From a virus (lineage: Duplodnaviria > Heunggongvirae > Uroviricota > Caudoviricetes), in IMG/VR virus record IMGVR_UViG_2690316346_000006, positions 1-13,493 of that record: DNA of 13,493 bases. The stretch is one strand, 5' to 3'. Below the pieces are notes generated by a model. The model did not search any database, had not been told where the DNA came from, and worked only from the letters and a program-made list of their open reading frames with translations. Below, piece after piece: positions 1 to 13,493 of this stretch (within the stretch, counting starts at the first letter, position 1; every line of letters begins with the position of its first letter). A program made the translations under genes and the position numbers.

Positions 1-51
1 ATCGGGCATTATCTGAACATAAAACACTATCAATAAGTTGGAGTCATTACC
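1..51 (+). mobile_element. IS1 terminal fragment (insB-proximal end including the terminal inverted repeat); body of the element lies upstream of the window
   Basis: Positions 1-51 are the exact reverse complement of 9926-9976 and 13443-13493, and match the remembered IS1 end ...CATCGGGCATTATCTGAACATAAAACACTATCAATAAGTTGGAGTCATTACC. Confidence 0.85.
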
Positions 52-183
52 AAACGGTTGAAATGTATGCCGCTACTTACGGGTCCTGTAATCCTCTGAA
101 TAAACCAGAGGGAAAAGATGATTTCGACAAAATTTACCGCTTCTTGGAGGACCGCTATATCAAAAGCTTAGAGGACGCAGGGA

Positions 184-561
184 TCAAATCCCCAGTGAAG
201 TCACCATTGTCCTGAGAACTTGCAGAACGTCATGATCATAACTTCCATCCAAACCGCGACGGCGAATTGCTTCTCGTATTACCGGAAGCAGTTCGCTGGA
301 AATCTCGGTGCATATTTCACCTGATAATACGCTTGGCTCAAGTGAGAATATTGGTGAACTTACGGTCTTGGTCTCGACAGTTTCAGAGTCAGTGCCAACA
401 TTATAAAGCTCAACGAAAGCGGTCTTGATTTTCCGGGCCAGATCTTTTGCTGGCTCGCTTGCAATATCTTTCCCGATTTCTCGCAGCACAGAATGCAATG
501 TATGAGCTGCTGTTTTCTGTACATCAGACGGTAAATCTTTAAATTCCATCGTCAGCCTCAT
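184..561 (-). CDS. hypothetical protein, 125 aa, second gene of a coupled two-gene operon
   Basis: ORF track. Its ATG (559-561) overlaps the stop of the upstream ORF (561-563) as ATGA on the minus strand. An alternative ATG at 547-549 has a GAGG 8 nt upstream. No recognisable motif. Confidence 0.5.
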   Translation of the reverse strand: MRLTMEFKDLPSDVQKTAAHTLHSVLREIGKDIASEPAKDLARKIKTAFVELYNVGTDSETVETKTVSSPIFSLEPSVLSGEICTEISSELLPVIREAIRRRGLDGSYDHDVLQVLRTMVTSLGI

Positions 562-767
562 CAGTCAGTGTTTCTGGCTAACCAGCAACGCGCGCCAGAT
601 TCGGTTTTAAACGTTTTGCTTTTGGTATACGTCATGGCGGTAAACGTTCCATCCTGGTTAGGGAACACGCCGCACACCAGAGATTCGTTGTTGCCAAGAT
701 CGATAGTATCCATGCTGACCTCATTTCCCCTTAACGCCGGGGTGGCGGAACAAAAAACCTGCTGCAT
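561..767 (-). CDS. small hypothetical protein (68 aa as listed; more likely about 50 aa from the internal ATG at 711-713)
   Basis: The internal ATG is preceded on the minus strand by TGAGGTcagcATG, a good Shine-Dalgarno; the listed start at 767 has none. Coupled via ATGA to the downstream ORF. Confidence 0.45.
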   Translation of the reverse strand: MQQVFCSATPALRGNEVSMDTIDLGNNESLVCGVFPNQDGTFTAMTYTKSKTFKTESGARCWLARNTD

Positions 768-953
768 AGTTAAAGATTGAACCCTGCCGTCATGTTCTTA
801 CGCCTCGGGCTGGCTACTTAACCCCTGACCACTGTCTGGTAACTCGAAGTATTGCCCTGCATTCTGTGGGGCGGGGTGGGTTGACGCCTGAAACAATAGC
901 ATCATTATTTTTTTTGATGTAAATAGCATCGCTATTGTTTTTTGTTGGGGCAA

Positions 954-976
954 GAAAAAACCACCCTAAGGTGGTT
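954..976 (-). terminator. rho-independent terminator for the minus-strand repressor/antitoxin/toxin transcript
   Basis: Plus strand reads aaaaaACCACCctaaGGTGGTT. On the minus strand this is a 7-bp stem with a 4-nt loop followed by a U-run, about 20 bp after the ParE-like stop at 993. Confidence 0.55.
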
Positions 977-992
977 CTGTCGGCGGGAATAA

Positions 993-1283
993 TTAACTGT
1001 TTTTGCCTGGATACTGTCTTCGAGAATGCACAATATTTACTACTTCTATGCTTGATGCTGTTACTCGGTAAAGGATGATGTAGTTAGGATGAGTTACAAT
1101 TTCACGAAGACCAAGAACTCGCTCGCTTGGAGGATACAGGTAAGGATGCTCTGTGAGCGGCAAAACGGATGTTTCAATTCGAATTTTCATTCTGCGTGCT
1201 GCCGCGGGATTTTCTTTAGCTATGTAGGCTACGATCTGGCGCAAATCATCACGAGCAGATGGTAGCCATAAAACGGGTAACAT
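993..1283 (-). CDS. parE: type II toxin, ParE/RelE superfamily
   Basis: 96 aa; sequence pattern (LPVLWLPSARDDL ... REIVTHPNYIILYRV ... VVNIVHSRRQYP) is typical of ParE-family toxins. Start overlaps the antitoxin stop (TAATG on the minus strand). Confidence 0.75.
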   Translation of the reverse strand: MLPVLWLPSARDDLRQIVAYIAKENPAAARRMKIRIETSVLPLTEHPYLYPPSERVLGLREIVTHPNYIILYRVTASSIEVVNIVHSRRQYPGKNS

Positions 1284-1477
1284 TATTCACCTCTGTGAGT
1301 TGCAGCAGCAATTTGGGCAATAATTTGTTCCATTTCCGCCATTACCTCATCATGCGGAATCGCCGGGCGGGGATCCGCGAGGCTTGCTGCTACTTTGGCC
1401 CGCAGCCATTCGTTGTAACTATTTTCTTGCTCAACTGTCTCAAATTCTGAAACCATTGGGGAAAGGACTGTACTCAT
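1283..1477 (-). CDS. paaA: small antitoxin, PaaA2-like, partner of the ParE-like toxin
   Basis: 64 aa, directly upstream of and overlapping the toxin gene. Segment SPMVSEFETVEQENSYNEWLRAKVAASLADPRPAIPHDEV matches my recollection of PaaA2 from the O157 paaR2-paaA2-parE2 system. AGGAGA lies 10 nt upstream of the ATG. Confidence 0.65.
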   Translation of the reverse strand: MSTVLSPMVSEFETVEQENSYNEWLRAKVAASLADPRPAIPHDEVMAEMEQIIAQIAAATHRGE

Positions 1478-1496
1478 TTTACATATCTCCTCTGAT

Positions 1497-1997
1497 TTAG
1501 GCGCGACGGCCTTTTTGTGCAGCTAACCACCGCGCAACCGTACGATCCATTGATTCTTTTTTATCTTTCATCTCCTGAAGCATGTGTTCTTGATCTTCTT
1601 TCGGAAAAGCTCTGAACGTATGGATTAAATCTCGTTCCATCGGCTCTACGGCAAACGGTAGTTCATCCTCTGTTTGTTCTGTGTCTGCTGGTAATGCGAC
1701 TATGTTATCTTGCTGTGGTTCTCGACAATACATCCTTGCAATTTGCAGCAAATCTACCATGTCTGGCCTGATTGACTCAGGGGGAACTTTCAGTAAGCCA
1801 GCAAACTTTAGAACAGCCTCAAGGTTTAGTGGGGTTTGACCATTTAGGTAGTGACTTACCGCCCCTTGTGTTGAAAACCCCATAATTTCCGCCGCACGTT
1901 CCTGAGTCAATCCCAACTGAGATTTCTTTGCCATCCAGATTTCTTTCAGTCTTCTGGCGGCGTTGAGGTCGGTGTCTGACAATGATTTTCTTTTCAT
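1497..1997 (-). CDS. cI-like HTH (XRE-family) repressor, probably PaaR2/RacR-like; ORF track extends to a GTG at 2027
   Basis: HTH motif region QLGLTQERAAEIMGFSTQGAVSHYLNG. Sits divergent to a Cro-like gene with a palindromic operator between them. The ATG at 1995-1997 (MKRKSL...) is favoured over the GTG at 2027, which has no Shine-Dalgarno. Confidence 0.7.
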   Translation of the reverse strand: MKRKSLSDTDLNAARRLKEIWMAKKSQLGLTQERAAEIMGFSTQGAVSHYLNGQTPLNLEAVLKFAGLLKVPPESIRPDMVDLLQIARMYCREPQQDNIVALPADTEQTEDELPFAVEPMERDLIHTFRAFPKEDQEHMLQEMKDKKESMDRTVARWLAAQKGRRA

Positions 1998-2027
1998 ACA
2001 TCCAATTCTAATAAGATTGCTAATCAC

Positions 2028-2108
2028 TTTGAAATAGTATCACTATTTACTTTTAAAAATAACAGTGCTATTAATTATGCATTGGTAACACATCACATAG
2101 GGCGGATT
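2028..2108. promoter_or_regulatory. divergent promoter/operator region between the repressor and the Cro-like gene; contains the palindrome AAATAGT-atc-ACTATTT (2032-2048)
   Basis: AT-rich 81-bp intergenic region between divergently oriented HTH genes. A perfect 7-bp inverted repeat with a 3-bp spacer is read directly from the sequence. Confidence 0.55.
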
Positions 2109-2372
2109 ATGAATCTTGGAGAATATTTGCATCATTTTCATATAACCCAGAGTTCATTTGCTGAGATTGTTGGCGCATCCCAAGGGATGGTCAGCCACGT
2201 TATAACGGGGCGTGCAAAACTTACAGGAGAAAAAATATTACGTTGGTGTGAAGCAACGGGATGGGTGGTGACCCCACATGAGATTGACAGTAAAACCTAC
2301 CCCAACCCAACTGACGGCTTGCCTGCTGAGTTTCAGGCTAACACACAACCATCGGCGGGGGTTGATTCATGA
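2109..2372 (+). CDS. ydaS: Cro-like HTH regulator (YdaS-like); ORF track start 2082, internal ATG at 2109 preferred
   Basis: HTH motif region ITQSSFAEIVGASQGMVSHVITG. Divergent from the repressor. GGGCGG lies 5 nt upstream of the ATG at 2109. Confidence 0.65.
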   Translation: MNLGEYLHHFHITQSSFAEIVGASQGMVSHVITGRAKLTGEKILRWCEATGWVVTPHEIDSKTYPNPTDGLPAEFQANTQPSAGVDS

Positions 2373-9539: not shown

Positions 9540-10007
9540 ATGAAATTAGCTATCAGGCTTCAATTACCGCTGGCATTCGCATCAAAGGAGAGGAGCATGG
9601 AAATAAAACCAGAAGATGAGTTAAGCAATATTGTTTTATTTCCGGTAAAAGAGGATAACCCACGTAATCAGGTTAATTTTCTTTATGAACCATCGGAAAG
9701 ACCATATTGCCATCACGCCTCTGTCCGGGTTGACGAAAAAGAGCGTCAGGTCCGCTGTAAAATTTGCGGTGCAGTTGTGGAGCCATTTGACTGGATGCTC
9801 TCTGTGGCGAAAAGAGAAACCAGACTGGCAGATGATGTAAGGCTATTGCGCCAGGAGGAACAGGAAAGGCGGAGAAATATAGAAAAGCTGATACAGATTG
9901 AGCGTAACGCGAAAGCGCGGATACGCGGTAATGACTCCAACTTATTGATAGTGTTTTATGTTCAGATAATGCCCGATGACTTTGTCATGCAGCTCCACCG
10001 ATTTTGA
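9540..10007 (+). pseudogene. zinc-ribbon small gene copy B, 3'-truncated at 9925 by IS1; the ORF reads on into IS1, giving a chimeric 26-aa tail
   Basis: Homology to copy A ends exactly at the IS1 end (...gcgcggatacgc|ggtaatgac). Translation continues ...ARIR then [26 protein letters not shown] from the IS1 sequence. Confidence 0.7.
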
Positions 10008-12857: not shown

Positions 12858-13195
12858 AAGGAAACAAAACAGAAACAGCAATTGCCGTTACCTGTTGTTA
12901 CCATGGCAAGTAAACGTATCTCAGGCGAGCGCATTGCGCCGTTCTGACGCAGATAAACTAGCCTGGATAGATGGTGCTGGCAATAAAAAATAGCGTTTTC
13001 TTATCGGTGTCGGTAAGATTGCTGCGGGTGCTTGAGGCTGTCTGCCTCGGGTATGTCACTGTAAGGCAGACAGAGAAAAGCCCCAGTTAACATTACGCGT
13101 CCTGCAAGACGCTTAACATTAATCTGAGGCCCAATCTATGTCTCACAAATGTAGGTTAGCCTCTTACGTGCCGAAAGGCAAGGAGAAGCAGGCTA

Positions 13196-13350
13196 TGAAG
13201 CAGCAAAAGGCGATGTTAATCGCCCTGATCGTCATCTGTTTAACCGTCATTGTGACGGCACTGGTAACGAGGAAAGACCTCTGCGAGGTACGAATCCGAA
13301 TCGGCCAGACGGAGGTCGCTGTTTTCGTAGACTACGAATCTAGAGAGTAA
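13196..13350 (+). CDS. hok: Hok/Gef-family type I toxin (closest by memory to HokD/RelF or HokC)
   Basis: MKQQKAMLIALIVICLTVIVTALVTRKDLCEVRIRIGQTEVAVFVDYESRE; AAGGAG lies 9 nt upstream of the ATG at 13196. The ORF track extends in frame to an ATG at 13138. Confidence 0.85.
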
Positions 13351-13442: not shown

Positions 13443-13493
13443 GGTAATGACTCCAACTTATTGATAGTGTTTTATGTTCAGATAATGCCCGAT
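13443..13493 (-). mobile_element. IS1 terminal fragment (insB-proximal end), element in minus orientation with its body downstream of the window
   Basis: Identical to 9926-9976 and the exact reverse complement of 1-51. Confidence 0.85.

What the first reader, a model, noticed from the sequence alone, without database searches (positions are those of the whole stretch)
184..950. Uncharacterised coupled two-gene operon downstream of the immunity module, with upstream direct repeats
Two minus-strand ORFs of about 50 aa and 125 aa are joined by an ATGA overlap, and the first has a good Shine-Dalgarno at its internal ATG. Their upstream region contains two copies of a 22-23 bp A/T-rich direct repeat (AATAGCATCnnTATTnTTTTTTG at 895-916 and 922-944) and a G-rich block. 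I recognise neither protein. The position, next to the repressor and leftward of it, is where lambdoid phages keep early-left genes such as kil, sieB and other host-interaction or exclusion functions, so this is a reasonable candidate for an undescribed superinfection-exclusion or host-modulation pair. The left IS1 may have removed downstream genes.
Basis: inference. Interest (0 to 1): 0.6.

Follow-up and report, generated by a model that had tools for sequence, protein, structure and literature searches.

The report
Head of a prophage early-left operon
The two small genes are the first genes of a repressor-controlled "early-left" operon of a Qin/CP-933P-like lambdoid prophage, the upstream "direct repeats" are the repressor's operator sites, and the layout is already known even though neither protein has a known function.

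Summary
The ORFs, the Shine-Dalgarno sequence, the repeats and the G-rich block are all present. The junction is misdescribed. The 125-aa reading shares one base (TGATG) with the upstream stop. The likelier start is the ATG 12 nt downstream, giving 121 aa with a GAGG 6 nt upstream.

- **First gene:** a clear YdfA/DUF1391 member, the promoter-proximal gene of the known dicBF-type operon.
- **Second gene (orf121):** matches no curated family. Its first ~52 residues form a conserved domain seen only in Enterobacteriaceae prophages, alone or joined to unrelated C-termini. It sits first to third after the repressor, with or without ydfA.
- **"Direct repeats":** two 15-bp palindromes (AATAGnnnnnCTATT) overlapping a −35/−10 pair. 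The same palindrome recurs between the repressor and cro-like genes, so they are OL operators on a PL promoter. This arrangement was shown experimentally for CP-933P (PL933P) and Qin (dicBp).
- **Downstream:** intact relatives continue into DicF or isrK/C4, then dicB, ydfD, exonuclease, xis and int. Here IS1 cuts 132 bp past orf121.
- **Promoter:** the spacer is 19 bp here, against 17 bp in IS1-free siblings.

This is an ordinary, partly decayed member of a known operon type. The functions of both proteins remain open.

The parts
1..51 (.). End of an IS1 copy (the terminal inverted repeat is exact at 25-51). It is inserted 132 bp beyond the orf121 stop codon.
   Evidence: Homology to intact relatives starts at window 52. 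Siblings L017 and L018 have the same sequence without IS1.
63..215 (+). The 3' 50 codons of a convergent 66-aa ORF (phrog_34441, unknown function). It overlaps the 3' end of orf121 by 32 nt. IS1 removed its first 16 codons and its promoter.
184..549 (-). orf121: a 121-aa acidic soluble protein (phrog_33007, annotated 'hypothetical' everywhere). The alternative ATG at 561 would give 125 aa.
   Evidence: dN/dS is 0.32-0.53. pI is 5.2 and there is no transmembrane segment. The AF2 model has pLDDT 59, with two helices, a disordered linker and two more helices.
394..549 (-). Conserved N-terminal domain of orf121 (aa 1-52, MEFKDLPxxVQxxAAxTLxxxL...EPAKxLARxIxxAFxELY), predicted to be a helical hairpin.
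   Evidence: It is shared with phrogs 9419, 1363, 2151 and 6937. It is found in 94 clusters at 50% identity and in 206 proteins. It matches no Pfam family and no PDB sequence.
556..559 (-). Shine-Dalgarno GAGG, 6 nt upstream of ATG 549.
   Evidence: The junction sequence is conserved in all loci that carry this gene type.
561..713 (-). ydfA homologue (DUF1391), 50 aa.
   Evidence: PF07151 E=3.3e-28, 97.5 bits against a cut-off of 27.3. It also matches phrog_751. It is about 88% identical (43 of the first 49 residues) to K-12 YdfA in the translations (K-12 locus). dN/dS is 0.10-0.21. The AF2 model has pLDDT 82.6 and a beta3-alpha fold.
719..722 (-). Shine-Dalgarno GAGG, 5 nt upstream of the ydfA ATG at 713.
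714..886 (-). Leader of about 173 nt (the 'long' type).
   Evidence: It is nearly identical in loci with different immunity types (L001, L002, L004, L005) and present in 22 loci. An alternative short leader is present in 40 loci. It shows no excess RNA structure (z=+1.2) and matches no Rfam family. The start at about 886 is inferred from the -10 position.
893..923 (-). Proposed PL promoter: -35 TTTACA (923-918), a 19-nt spacer, and -10 TATTGT (898-893).
   Evidence: It has the same layout as PR in this window (TTTACT-17-TATTAA, 2046-2074). Siblings L002, L017 and L018 have a 17-nt spacer. The consensus scan missed it because that scan allows only 16-18 nt spacers. The homologous promoter in CP-933P was shown to work and to be repressed about 100-fold (PMC8630535).
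895..909 (.). Operator OL1 (AATAGCATCATTATT, one mismatch to the palindrome). It overlaps the -10.
922..936 (.). Operator OL2 (AATAGCATCGCTATT, a perfect palindrome). It overlaps the -35.
955..978 (-). Intrinsic terminator (9-bp stem followed by a U-run) ending the repressor-paaA2-parE transcript. It insulates PL from read-through.
   Evidence: Fold of -15.1 kcal/mol, z=-3.1, 0 of 200 shuffles as stable; I3.
993..1477 (-). ParE-family toxin (993-1283) and PaaA2/RelB-type antitoxin (1283-1477).
   Evidence: PF05016 E=1.8e-17 and PF21217 E=3e-23; NF050103 E=3e-27.
1497..1997 (-). CI-like HTH repressor (166 aa from ATG 1997), with a DicA-like C-terminus. It stands in the place of PaaR2 in the three-gene module.
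   Evidence: HTH_3 E=9e-9; DicA NF007257 match to its C-terminus E=9e-8; RefSeq annotation in L002.
2010..2072 (.). OR region with operators at 2010-2024 (2 mismatches), 2033-2047 (perfect) and 2058-2072 (1 mismatch). They overlap PR (2046-2074) and a leftward PRM-like promoter (2033-2005).
2109..2372 (+). Cro-like (YdaS-type) HTH gene, followed by a YdaT/CII-like gene (2369-2794).

Best explanation
Window 184-950 is the promoter-proximal end of the early-left operon (PL, or dicBp type) of a Qin/CP-933P-like lambdoid prophage.

How it works:
- A sigma-70 promoter (-35 at 923-918, -10 at 898-893) is overlapped by two 15-bp palindromic operators.
- The neighbouring CI-like repressor (1497-1997) binds these operators, and probably the Cro-like protein (2109-2372) does too. 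The same proteins act on three related sites at OR.
- In a lysogen the operon is therefore off. A terminator at 955-978 stops read-through from the repressor-paaA2-parE transcript.
- When the repressor is lost, transcription runs through a leader of about 173 nt, then ydfA (DUF1391, 50 aa), then orf121 11 nt later.
- In intact relatives it continues into isrK/C4/Rha or DicF, then dicB, ydfD/DUF1482, a RecE-like exonuclease, xis and int.

In this copy IS1 has cut the operon 132 bp after orf121. The promoter spacer has also grown from 17 to 19 bp. The unit is most likely a decaying remnant.

Shown here by sequence comparison: gene identities, shared operators, synteny and the IS1 cut. Shown by others in relatives: repression of PL933P and of dicBp, and polycistronic transcription from upstream of ydfA.

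Inferred: the repressor of this immunity type binds AATAGnnnnnCTATT, and the transcript starts near 886. Also inferred: YdfA and orf121 are small soluble early-lytic accessory proteins that act by binding other proteins, and they do not function in lysogen immunity or exclusion.
For: Gene identity and synteny:
- DUF1391 assignment.
- The order repressor-(relB/parE)-DUF1391-orf121-DicF-dicB-ydfD-exo-xis-int is seen in L001. The same layout is in phage mEp460 and in most of 80 IMG/VR loci.
- K-12 Qin has dicA-ydfA-ydfB-ydfC-dicB-ydfD.

Operators and promoter:
- The palindrome occurs with at most one mismatch only at 895, 922, 2033 and 2058. That is 4 observed against 0.30 expected, with 0 of 200 shuffles reaching 4.
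- PL and PR have the same operator/-35/-10 layout.
- Each immunity type shares long words between its own PL-proximal DNA and its own repressor-cro spacer. In an 8x8 matrix, 5 rows have a unique maximum on the diagonal.
- The terminator is supported.

Literature:
- PL933P with OL1-3 lies downstream of parE2 and is repressed about 100-fold by PaaR2 and by YdaS (PMC8630535).
- dicBp lies upstream of ydfA, is repressed 22-fold by DicA, and drives a polycistronic ydfABC-dicF-dicB-ydfD transcript (PMC10448788; PMC5069750).

Both ORFs are real genes. dN/dS is 0.10-0.21 for ydfA and 0.32-0.53 for orf121.
Against: - No experiment exists for this immunity type.
- Only two operators are recognisable at PL, against three in CP-933P.
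- The -10 (TATTGT) is weak, and the 19-nt spacer put the site outside the promoter scan.
- dicF and dicB are absent from the window. Assigning it to the operon type therefore rests on relatives and on the near-identical siblings L017 and L018.
- The longest-common-word test for operator covariation is crude, and two immunity types (Serratia, S24) gave no signal.
- Nothing found here indicates what YdfA or orf121 does. Fold searches gave only weak matches.
Confidence: 0.85

Rival explanations
1. One reading: the two proteins are an undescribed superinfection-exclusion pair that protects the lysogen. The repeats would be a regulatory element of their own.
For: The position next to the immunity region resembles that of rex and sieB. 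Expression of the whole dicBF operon does protect against lambda-vir (PMC6832061).
Against: - That protection is due to DicB. Strains deleted for dicB, or for dicB and dicF, still express ydfABC yet regain almost full lambda-vir plating.
- The only promoter found is operator-controlled and insulated by a terminator.
- No minus-strand promoter-like site lies in 714-890.
- Both proteins are acidic, soluble and without a transmembrane segment.
- Neither matches PADLOC.
- The repeats are shared with OR.
Confidence: 0.05
2. YdfA and orf121 form an obligate two-component unit, for example a toxin-antitoxin-like or effector-chaperone pair, translated by coupling.
For: An 11-nt spacer is conserved in 65 of 80 viral loci. 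The pair is present in 397 E. coli genomes.
Against: - ydfA is followed by ydfB and ydfC instead in Qin and L002.
- N-domain genes stand first after the repressor, without ydfA, in L010-L014 (Serratia, Enterobacter kobei and an uncultured source) and in seven of the IMG/VR loci.
- ydfB can sit between the two genes.
- orf121 is unrelated to YdfB and YdfC.
- ydfA is found in 3778 genomes, but the pair in only 397.
- K-12 ydfABC expression is not toxic.
Confidence: 0.1
3. YdfA is a small nucleic-acid-binding regulator of the early-left transcript. The idea rests on its AP2/integrase-arm-like beta3-alpha fold. It could be an early regulator or an antitermination factor acting on the conserved leader.
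For: - The AF2 model is fairly confident (pLDDT 82.6).
- It is the first gene after a conserved leader, the place N holds in lambda.
Against: - The protein is acidic (net charge -1.5) and has no arginine-rich motif.
- The leader shows no excess structure and matches no Rfam family.
- Two unrelated leader types precede the same gene.
Confidence: 0.08
4. The ORFs are chance reading frames or dead pseudogenes in a decayed prophage, and no protein is made.
For: The prophage is riddled with IS1, and the promoter spacer is abnormal.
Against: - Both frames are intact and show dN/dS below 1.
- Both are conserved across genera and in a deposited phage genome, Escherichia phage mEp460_ev081.
- Both have well-placed Shine-Dalgarno sequences.
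- A ydfA transcript has been detected in K-12 (PMC10448788).
Confidence: 0.03

Closest known systems
dicBF operon of the Qin cryptic prophage of E. coli K-12 (dicBp-ydfA-ydfB-ydfC-dicF-dicB-ydfD, repressed by DicA/DicC)
   Same: It has the same first gene (YdfA, DUF1391), about 88% identical. The gene sits in the same place, directly leftward of a CI-like repressor and under a repressor-controlled promoter. The last 45 nt or so of the leader and the Shine-Dalgarno sequence match. Relatives of this window continue into DicF, dicB and ydfD.
   Different: - The second slot holds orf121 instead of ydfB and ydfC, to which it is unrelated.
- The repressor and operator specificity differ.
- A ParE/PaaA2 module lies between the repressor and PL.
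- The leader is the long type rather than Qin's short type.
- dicF and dicB are not in the window because of IS1.
PL933P/OL1-3 of cryptic prophage CP-933P, downstream of paaR2-paaA2-parE2 (Jurenas et al., mBio 2021, PMC8630535)
   Same: The order is the same: repressor, PaaA2-type antitoxin, ParE toxin, then a leftward promoter. The operators resemble those at OR, and the -35/-10 pair resembles PR. The leader is the same long type, as in L001, which carries the CP-933P-type operators.
   Different: - It is heteroimmune. The operator is AATAGnnnnnCTATT rather than the GTTTAGTAA-type repeats.
- The repressor is 166 aa with a DicA-like C-terminus, against 123 aa for the repressor annotated at the same position in L001.
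- Two operators are recognisable, not three.
- The PL hexamers are similar but not identical to PR, and the spacer is 19 nt in this copy.
Lambda PL/OL early-left operon (N, cIII, kil, gam, bet, exo, xis, int)
   Same: The logic is the same. A leftward early promoter is overlapped by operators shared with OR. Small host-directed proteins come first, and recombination and integration genes come last.
   Different: There is no N homologue and no recognisable nut site. The first genes are YdfA and a Ybl81-like protein. The repressor is unrelated in sequence specificity.
Ybl81-like hypothetical proteins (phrogs 33007, 2151, 6937, 1363, 9419), for example the 212-aa protein after ydfA in E. coli O157:H7 prophages
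   Same: They share the ~50-aa N-terminal domain beginning MEFKDLP. They also share the position after ydfA with the same 11-nt spacer.
   Different: The C-terminal parts are unrelated in sequence and length (52 to 212 aa). None has a known function or a curated family.

Membership tests
DUF1391 / YdfA (Pfam PF07151) | Sequence match above the curated Pfam gathering score | tested here: met
   E=3.3e-28, 97.5 bits against a cut-off of 27.3, covering profile positions 1-47 of 48. There are 303 close relatives, all carrying PF07151.
DUF1391 / YdfA (Pfam PF07151) | About 50 aa, and the promoter-proximal gene leftward of a lambdoid repressor | tested here: met
   Searches show the same position in five annotated prophages.
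dicBF-type operon (Qin) | The promoter upstream of ydfA carries operators for the adjacent CI-like repressor | tested here: met
   Met at the sequence level only. The palindromes are shared between PL and OR, and they covary with immunity type. Binding was not tested.
dicBF-type operon (Qin) | DicF sRNA downstream in the same transcript | tested here: not met
   There is no DicF in the window, because IS1 cuts at position 52. DicF is present in L001 and in most related loci. The siblings L017 and L018 carry isrK and C4 instead.
dicBF-type operon (Qin) | dicB (and ydfD/DUF1482) downstream | tested here: not met
   They are not in the window. They are present in the IS1-free sibling L017 and in L001-L005. 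Whether they survive beyond the IS1 in this genome cannot be seen.
paaR2-paaA2-parE2 three-gene module with PL (CP-933P type) | HTH repressor, PaaA2-type antitoxin and ParE toxin in one leftward unit | tested here: met
   PF21217 E=3e-23, PF05016 E=1.8e-17, HTH_3 E=9e-9; NF050103.
paaR2-paaA2-parE2 three-gene module with PL (CP-933P type) | A leftward promoter after parE whose operators resemble OR and which is repressed by the repressor and by Cro | tested here: inconclusive
   The sequence architecture is present. Repression was shown only for CP-933P (PMC8630535), not for this immunity type.
Superinfection exclusion proteins (SieB, Rex and similar) | Expression in the lysogen, independent of PL repression | tested here: not met
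   The only promoter found is operator-overlapped. A terminator insulates it.
Superinfection exclusion proteins (SieB, Rex and similar) | Homology to a known exclusion or defence family, or membrane localisation | tested here: not met
   No PADLOC hit. No relevant Pfam or NCBIfam hit. The maximum 19-residue hydropathy is 1.02 for orf121 and 0.37 for YdfA.
Type II toxin-antitoxin pair | The two genes co-occur obligatorily as a unit | tested here: not met
   Each gene is found without the other.
Lambda N-type antiterminator | An arginine-rich RNA-binding motif in the first PL gene, with a nut (boxA/boxB) site in the leader | tested here: not met
   YdfA and orf121 are acidic. The leader is not structured and matches no Rfam family.
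Ybl81-like N-terminal domain family (uncurated) | An N-terminal ~50-aa domain, MEFKDLP...EPAK...AFxELY | tested here: met
   Profile searches, PHROG matches over residues 1-52 and alignments A1 and A2.

The most novel reading that the evidence does not exclude
The Ybl81-like family may be a modular set of early phage proteins. A conserved ~50-aa N-terminal helical hairpin would dock onto a constant host or phage partner. Swappable C-terminal parts would carry different activities. An equally variable convergent small ORF often sits at the 3' end.

The immunity-proximal end of the PL operon would then be a diversification hotspot for phage-host or phage-phage conflict, for example anti-defence or competition during induction. 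The evidence does not exclude this: the N-domain is under constraint while the linker and C-termini vary, and the gene holds the first to third position after the repressor in several genera.
Probability: 0.2. Interest if true: 0.55.

Novelty: new member of a known kind. Interest (0 to 1): 0.25.

Why it matters
The result turns an apparently orphan gene pair with mysterious repeats into a recognisable unit. It is a heteroimmune copy of the PL/OL-controlled early-left operon already dissected in Qin and CP-933P.

Three things follow:
- **Testable operator:** it predicts the operator sequence of this repressor type, AATAGnnnnnCTATT, at both OL and OR. That prediction can be tested directly.
- **Decay of the locus:** IS1 separates ydfA and orf121 from the division inhibitors normally co-transcribed with them. 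A two-base expansion has also lengthened the promoter spacer.
- **Open question:** what do YdfA and the Ybl81-like proteins do? A ydfA-like sequence was found in 3778 of 5426 complete E. coli genomes (70%), and neither family has a function, a solved structure or, for the second, a curated family. The mix of a constant N-terminal domain with variable C-termini gives a concrete handle for experiments.

Tried and rejected
Searches for orf121 that gave nothing useful:
- Pfam, NCBIfam and PADLOC.
- Pfam on 45 family members and on five other C-terminal variants.
- PDB sequence search with the family profile: no hit at E up to 1.
- Foldseek of the model against PDB: best E=4.7. The model is also weak, with pLDDT 59.

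Searches for YdfA:
- PDB sequence search gave only E=0.35 noise.

Other tests:
- Is orf121 a fused or diverged YdfB/YdfC? hhalign probability was 0.1-0.2%, so this was rejected.
- The leader RNA matched no Rfam family even at E up to 5 and showed no excess folding (z=+1.2). I therefore dropped the idea of a put- or nut-like structured element.
- The search for related loci with the diverse alignment A2 failed for lack of a conserved stretch. With A1, the species-representative genome set gave only 4 loci.

Literature:
- The 'ydfA' of IncI plasmids (PMC12111858) appears to be an unrelated gene that shares only the name, judged from its plasmid ibfA-ydeA-ydfA context; no sequence was compared.
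- 'DUF1391' appears in only one paper of the library, a Shigella/EIEC genome-wide association study with a single mention, which I did not open.
- RefSeq accessions of these proteins appear in no paper.

Reading frames:
- The 51-aa TTG ORF at 798-953 has no family match. It lies across the promoter and leader, so I treated it as spurious.
- The N-terminal extension of the 68-aa ORF was rejected because its frame is not conserved.
Full report
**What is in the sequence**

The window is the early region of a lambdoid prophage bounded and interrupted by IS1. IS1 ends lie at 1-51, 9927 and 13443.

On the minus strand, from right to left, the genes are:
- a CI-like HTH repressor at 1497-1997, with HTH_3 and a DicA-like C-terminus;
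- a PaaA2/RelB-type antitoxin at 1283-1477;
- a ParE toxin at 993-1283;
- the two ORFs of the finding.

On the plus strand a Cro-like gene (ATG 2109) and a YdaT/CII-like gene follow. Relatives are annotated in the same way.

**Check of the observation**

Both ORFs exist. The internal ATG at 713 has GAGG 5 nt upstream. The direct repeat 895-915 / 922-942 is 86% identical. The G-rich block lies at about 866-882.

The junction is not an ATGA overlap. The first gene stops at TGA 563-561, and the 125-aa frame starts at ATG 561-559. That is a one-base TGATG overlap.

The more likely start is ATG 549:
- It has GAGG (559-556) 6 nt upstream.
- RefSeq annotates 121 aa.
- The family begins at MEFKDLP in 45 diverse members.

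The 18-codon extension of the 68-aa ORF is out of frame in L002. YdfA is therefore 50 aa.

**The first gene**

It matches Pfam DUF1391 at E=3e-28, well above the cut-off. It is about 88% identical (43 of the first 49 residues) to K-12 YdfA in the translations.

A ydfA-like sequence is found in 3778 of 5426 complete E. coli genomes, in up to 7 places per genome. The family is tight and limited to Escherichia, Shigella and Salmonella. dN/dS is 0.10-0.21.

The literature treats ydfA as the promoter-proximal gene of the dicBF operon, with no known function (PMC5069750; PMC10448788).

**The second gene (orf121)**

It is 'hypothetical' everywhere. It has no Pfam, NCBIfam, PADLOC or PDB match. It belongs to phrog_33007.

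Its first ~52 residues are a distinct conserved domain. They match four other PHROGs from position 1, 94 clusters at 50% identity and 206 proteins, all from Enterobacteriaceae. One source names a member Ybl81.

The domain occurs alone (50-66 aa), once in tandem (P0038), or joined to unrelated C-termini of up to 212 aa.

The AF2 model is poor overall (pLDDT 59). It predicts a helical hairpin for the N-domain, a disordered acidic linker (53-82) and two C-terminal helices. Both the N-domain and the C-domain are constrained, while the linker evolves fast.

orf121 is not related to YdfB or YdfC.

**Are the two genes a pair?**

The exact pair is in 397 of 5426 complete E. coli genomes. It is also in the deposited phage genome Escherichia phage mEp460_ev081. 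In 65 of 80 IMG/VR loci, ydfA precedes an N-domain gene with the same 11-nt spacer.

The pairing is not obligatory:
- Qin and L002 have ydfA-ydfB-ydfC.
- L059 has ydfA, ydfB and then a 52-aa N-domain gene.
- In L010-L014 (Serratia, Enterobacter kobei and an uncultured source) and in seven of the IMG/VR loci, the N-domain gene is the first gene after the repressor, and no ydfA is present.

orf121 itself sits behind at least five different repressor types. These are interchangeable cassettes in one slot.

**The repeats are operators**

The core of each repeat is a 15-bp palindrome. AATAGCATCGCTATT at 922-936 is perfect, and 895-909 has one mismatch. With at most one mismatch, the pattern occurs only four times in 13.5 kb. 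Two are here, and two lie between the repressor and cro-like genes (2033 and 2058). Shuffles give 0.30 on average, and 0 of 200 reach 4. A weaker third site lies at 2010.

At both places the left palindrome overlaps a -35 (TTTACA or TTTACT). The right one overlaps a -10 (TATTGT or TATTAA). These are OL on PL and OR on PR.

In other immunity types the DNA at the same position differs. It matches each locus's own repressor-cro spacer. In an 8x8 comparison, 5 rows have their unique maximum on the diagonal.

The same arrangement was shown experimentally in CP-933P. PL933P lies downstream of parE2 with OL1-3 and is repressed about 100-fold by PaaR2 and by YdaS. [quoted passage not shown] In Qin, dicBp is repressed 22-fold by DicA and drives a polycistronic transcript starting upstream of ydfA (PMC10448788).

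A strong hairpin followed by a U-run at 955-978 (z=-3.1) ends the repressor-paaA2-parE transcript before PL.

**The leader**

The mosaic boundary between immunity-specific DNA and conserved DNA falls just downstream of the -10. It is nearly identical across immunity types.

Two alternative leaders exist. The long type is in 22 loci, including this window. A short type is in 40 loci, including Qin and mEp460. They merge about 45 nt before the ydfA ATG.

The long leader has no excess structure and no Rfam match. Its role is unexplained.

**What lies downstream, and what IS1 did**

In L001 the operon continues with DicF (Rfam, 72.5 bits), dicB, ydfD, exonuclease, xis and int. Most related loci do the same.

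- L016 is identical to window 1-2100, including the IS1 end.
- L017 and L018 are 99.8% identical over window 52-2100 but lack IS1.
- In L017 and L018, orf121 is followed by a convergent 66-aa ORF and isrK and C4 RNAs. L017 then continues with a Rha-like gene, dicB and a DUF1482-like ORF.

IS1 therefore inserted 132 bp past the orf121 stop, inside the convergent ORF. It separates ydfA and orf121 from the rest of the operon. Whether the rest survives beyond the IS1 cannot be seen from this window.

The two IS1-bearing copies (the window and L016) have an A8 run that makes the PL spacer 19 nt. L002, L017 and L018 have A6, giving 17 nt. This probably weakens the promoter, which is an inference.

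**Function**

No test here gives a function for either protein. The data constrain it in three ways:
- Both are small, acidic and soluble.
- Both are expressed only when the repressor is lost (inferred from the promoter architecture).
- In K-12, Plac-driven ydfA-ydfB-ydfC-ydfD without dicF and dicB caused no growth or shape defect (PMC5069750). Strains lacking dicB, or dicB and dicF, plated lambda-vir almost normally (PMC6832061).

This argues against toxicity or exclusion by YdfA. It says nothing about orf121.

My best reading is that both are early-lytic accessory proteins acting through protein binding. orf121 would be one allele of a modular family.

**Verdict**

This is a real feature with a known architecture. 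It is a new, heteroimmune and partly decayed member of that kind. Interest is low to moderate. The residual novelty lies in the uncharacterised Ybl81-like domain family and in YdfA.

Noticed in passing
window 899-917 (PL spacer); L002, L016, L017, L018: The A-run in the PL spacer is A8 in the window and in L016, the two IS1-bearing copies. It is A6 in the otherwise near-identical L002, L017 and L018. The spacer is therefore 19 nt instead of 17 nt, which looks like a slippage mutation that probably weakens the promoter.
   Followed up: partly
window 1995-2033: A leftward promoter-like site (TTCAAA-17-TAGAAT, 2033-2005) ends 7 nt before the repressor's ATG at 1997. The repressor mRNA would then be leaderless, as reported for lambda cI and paaR2 (PMC8630535).
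   Followed up: partly
window 714-886; L001, L002, L004, L005 against L003, L006, L007, L015: Two unrelated leader modules precede ydfA. One is a long leader of about 173 nt with a C-rich, unstructured 5' end (22 loci). The other is a short one with an ACACCGCACGGTGT hairpin (40 loci). The long leader is nearly invariant across immunity types. Its function is unknown, and a Rho-loading site is one untested idea.
   Followed up: partly
window 63-215 (+); L001 5964-6164; L010 4269-4514; L014 4416-4634; L059 3131-3328; L004 2672-2881: A small convergent ORF (65-81 aa) overlaps or abuts the 3' end of the N-domain gene in several genera. The four such ORFs translated here show no obvious similarity to one another; they were not formally aligned. 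The copy in this window (phrog_34441) lost its first 16 codons to IS1.
   Followed up: partly
L059 2861-2989 and seven other loci with 150 nt between ydfA and the N-domain gene: In L059, a ydfB copy lies between ydfA and a stand-alone 52-aa N-domain gene. YdfB-type and Ybl81-type cassettes can therefore coexist, and the slots recombine freely. Seven other loci show the same 150-nt gap but were not inspected.
   Followed up: partly
P0038 (204 aa): One family member carries two tandem copies of the N-terminal domain, at residues 1-65 and 117-181.
   Followed up: no
window 714-767 and relatives: Gene callers often give YdfA as 65-86 aa, because the leader happens to be in frame with upstream ATGs. 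The frame and length of this extension differ between loci. These long forms are probably annotation artefacts.
   Followed up: partly
window 13026-13200: A sok antisense RNA (Rfam RF01794, 118 bits) lies next to a hok-like ORF, just inside the right-hand IS1 at 13443. A third IS1 end lies at 9927.
   Followed up: no
L017 4018-4620: The IS1-free sibling of this prophage carries a tandem duplication of the isrK-C4 RNA pair, upstream of a Rha-like gene and between orf121 and dicB.
   Followed up: no
window 881-908 (+): A plus-strand promoter-like site (TTGACG-16-CATTAT) points away from ydfA, towards the parE 3' end, and overlaps OL1. The number of such sites in the region is no higher than chance (3 found, 4.0 expected).
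   Followed up: no
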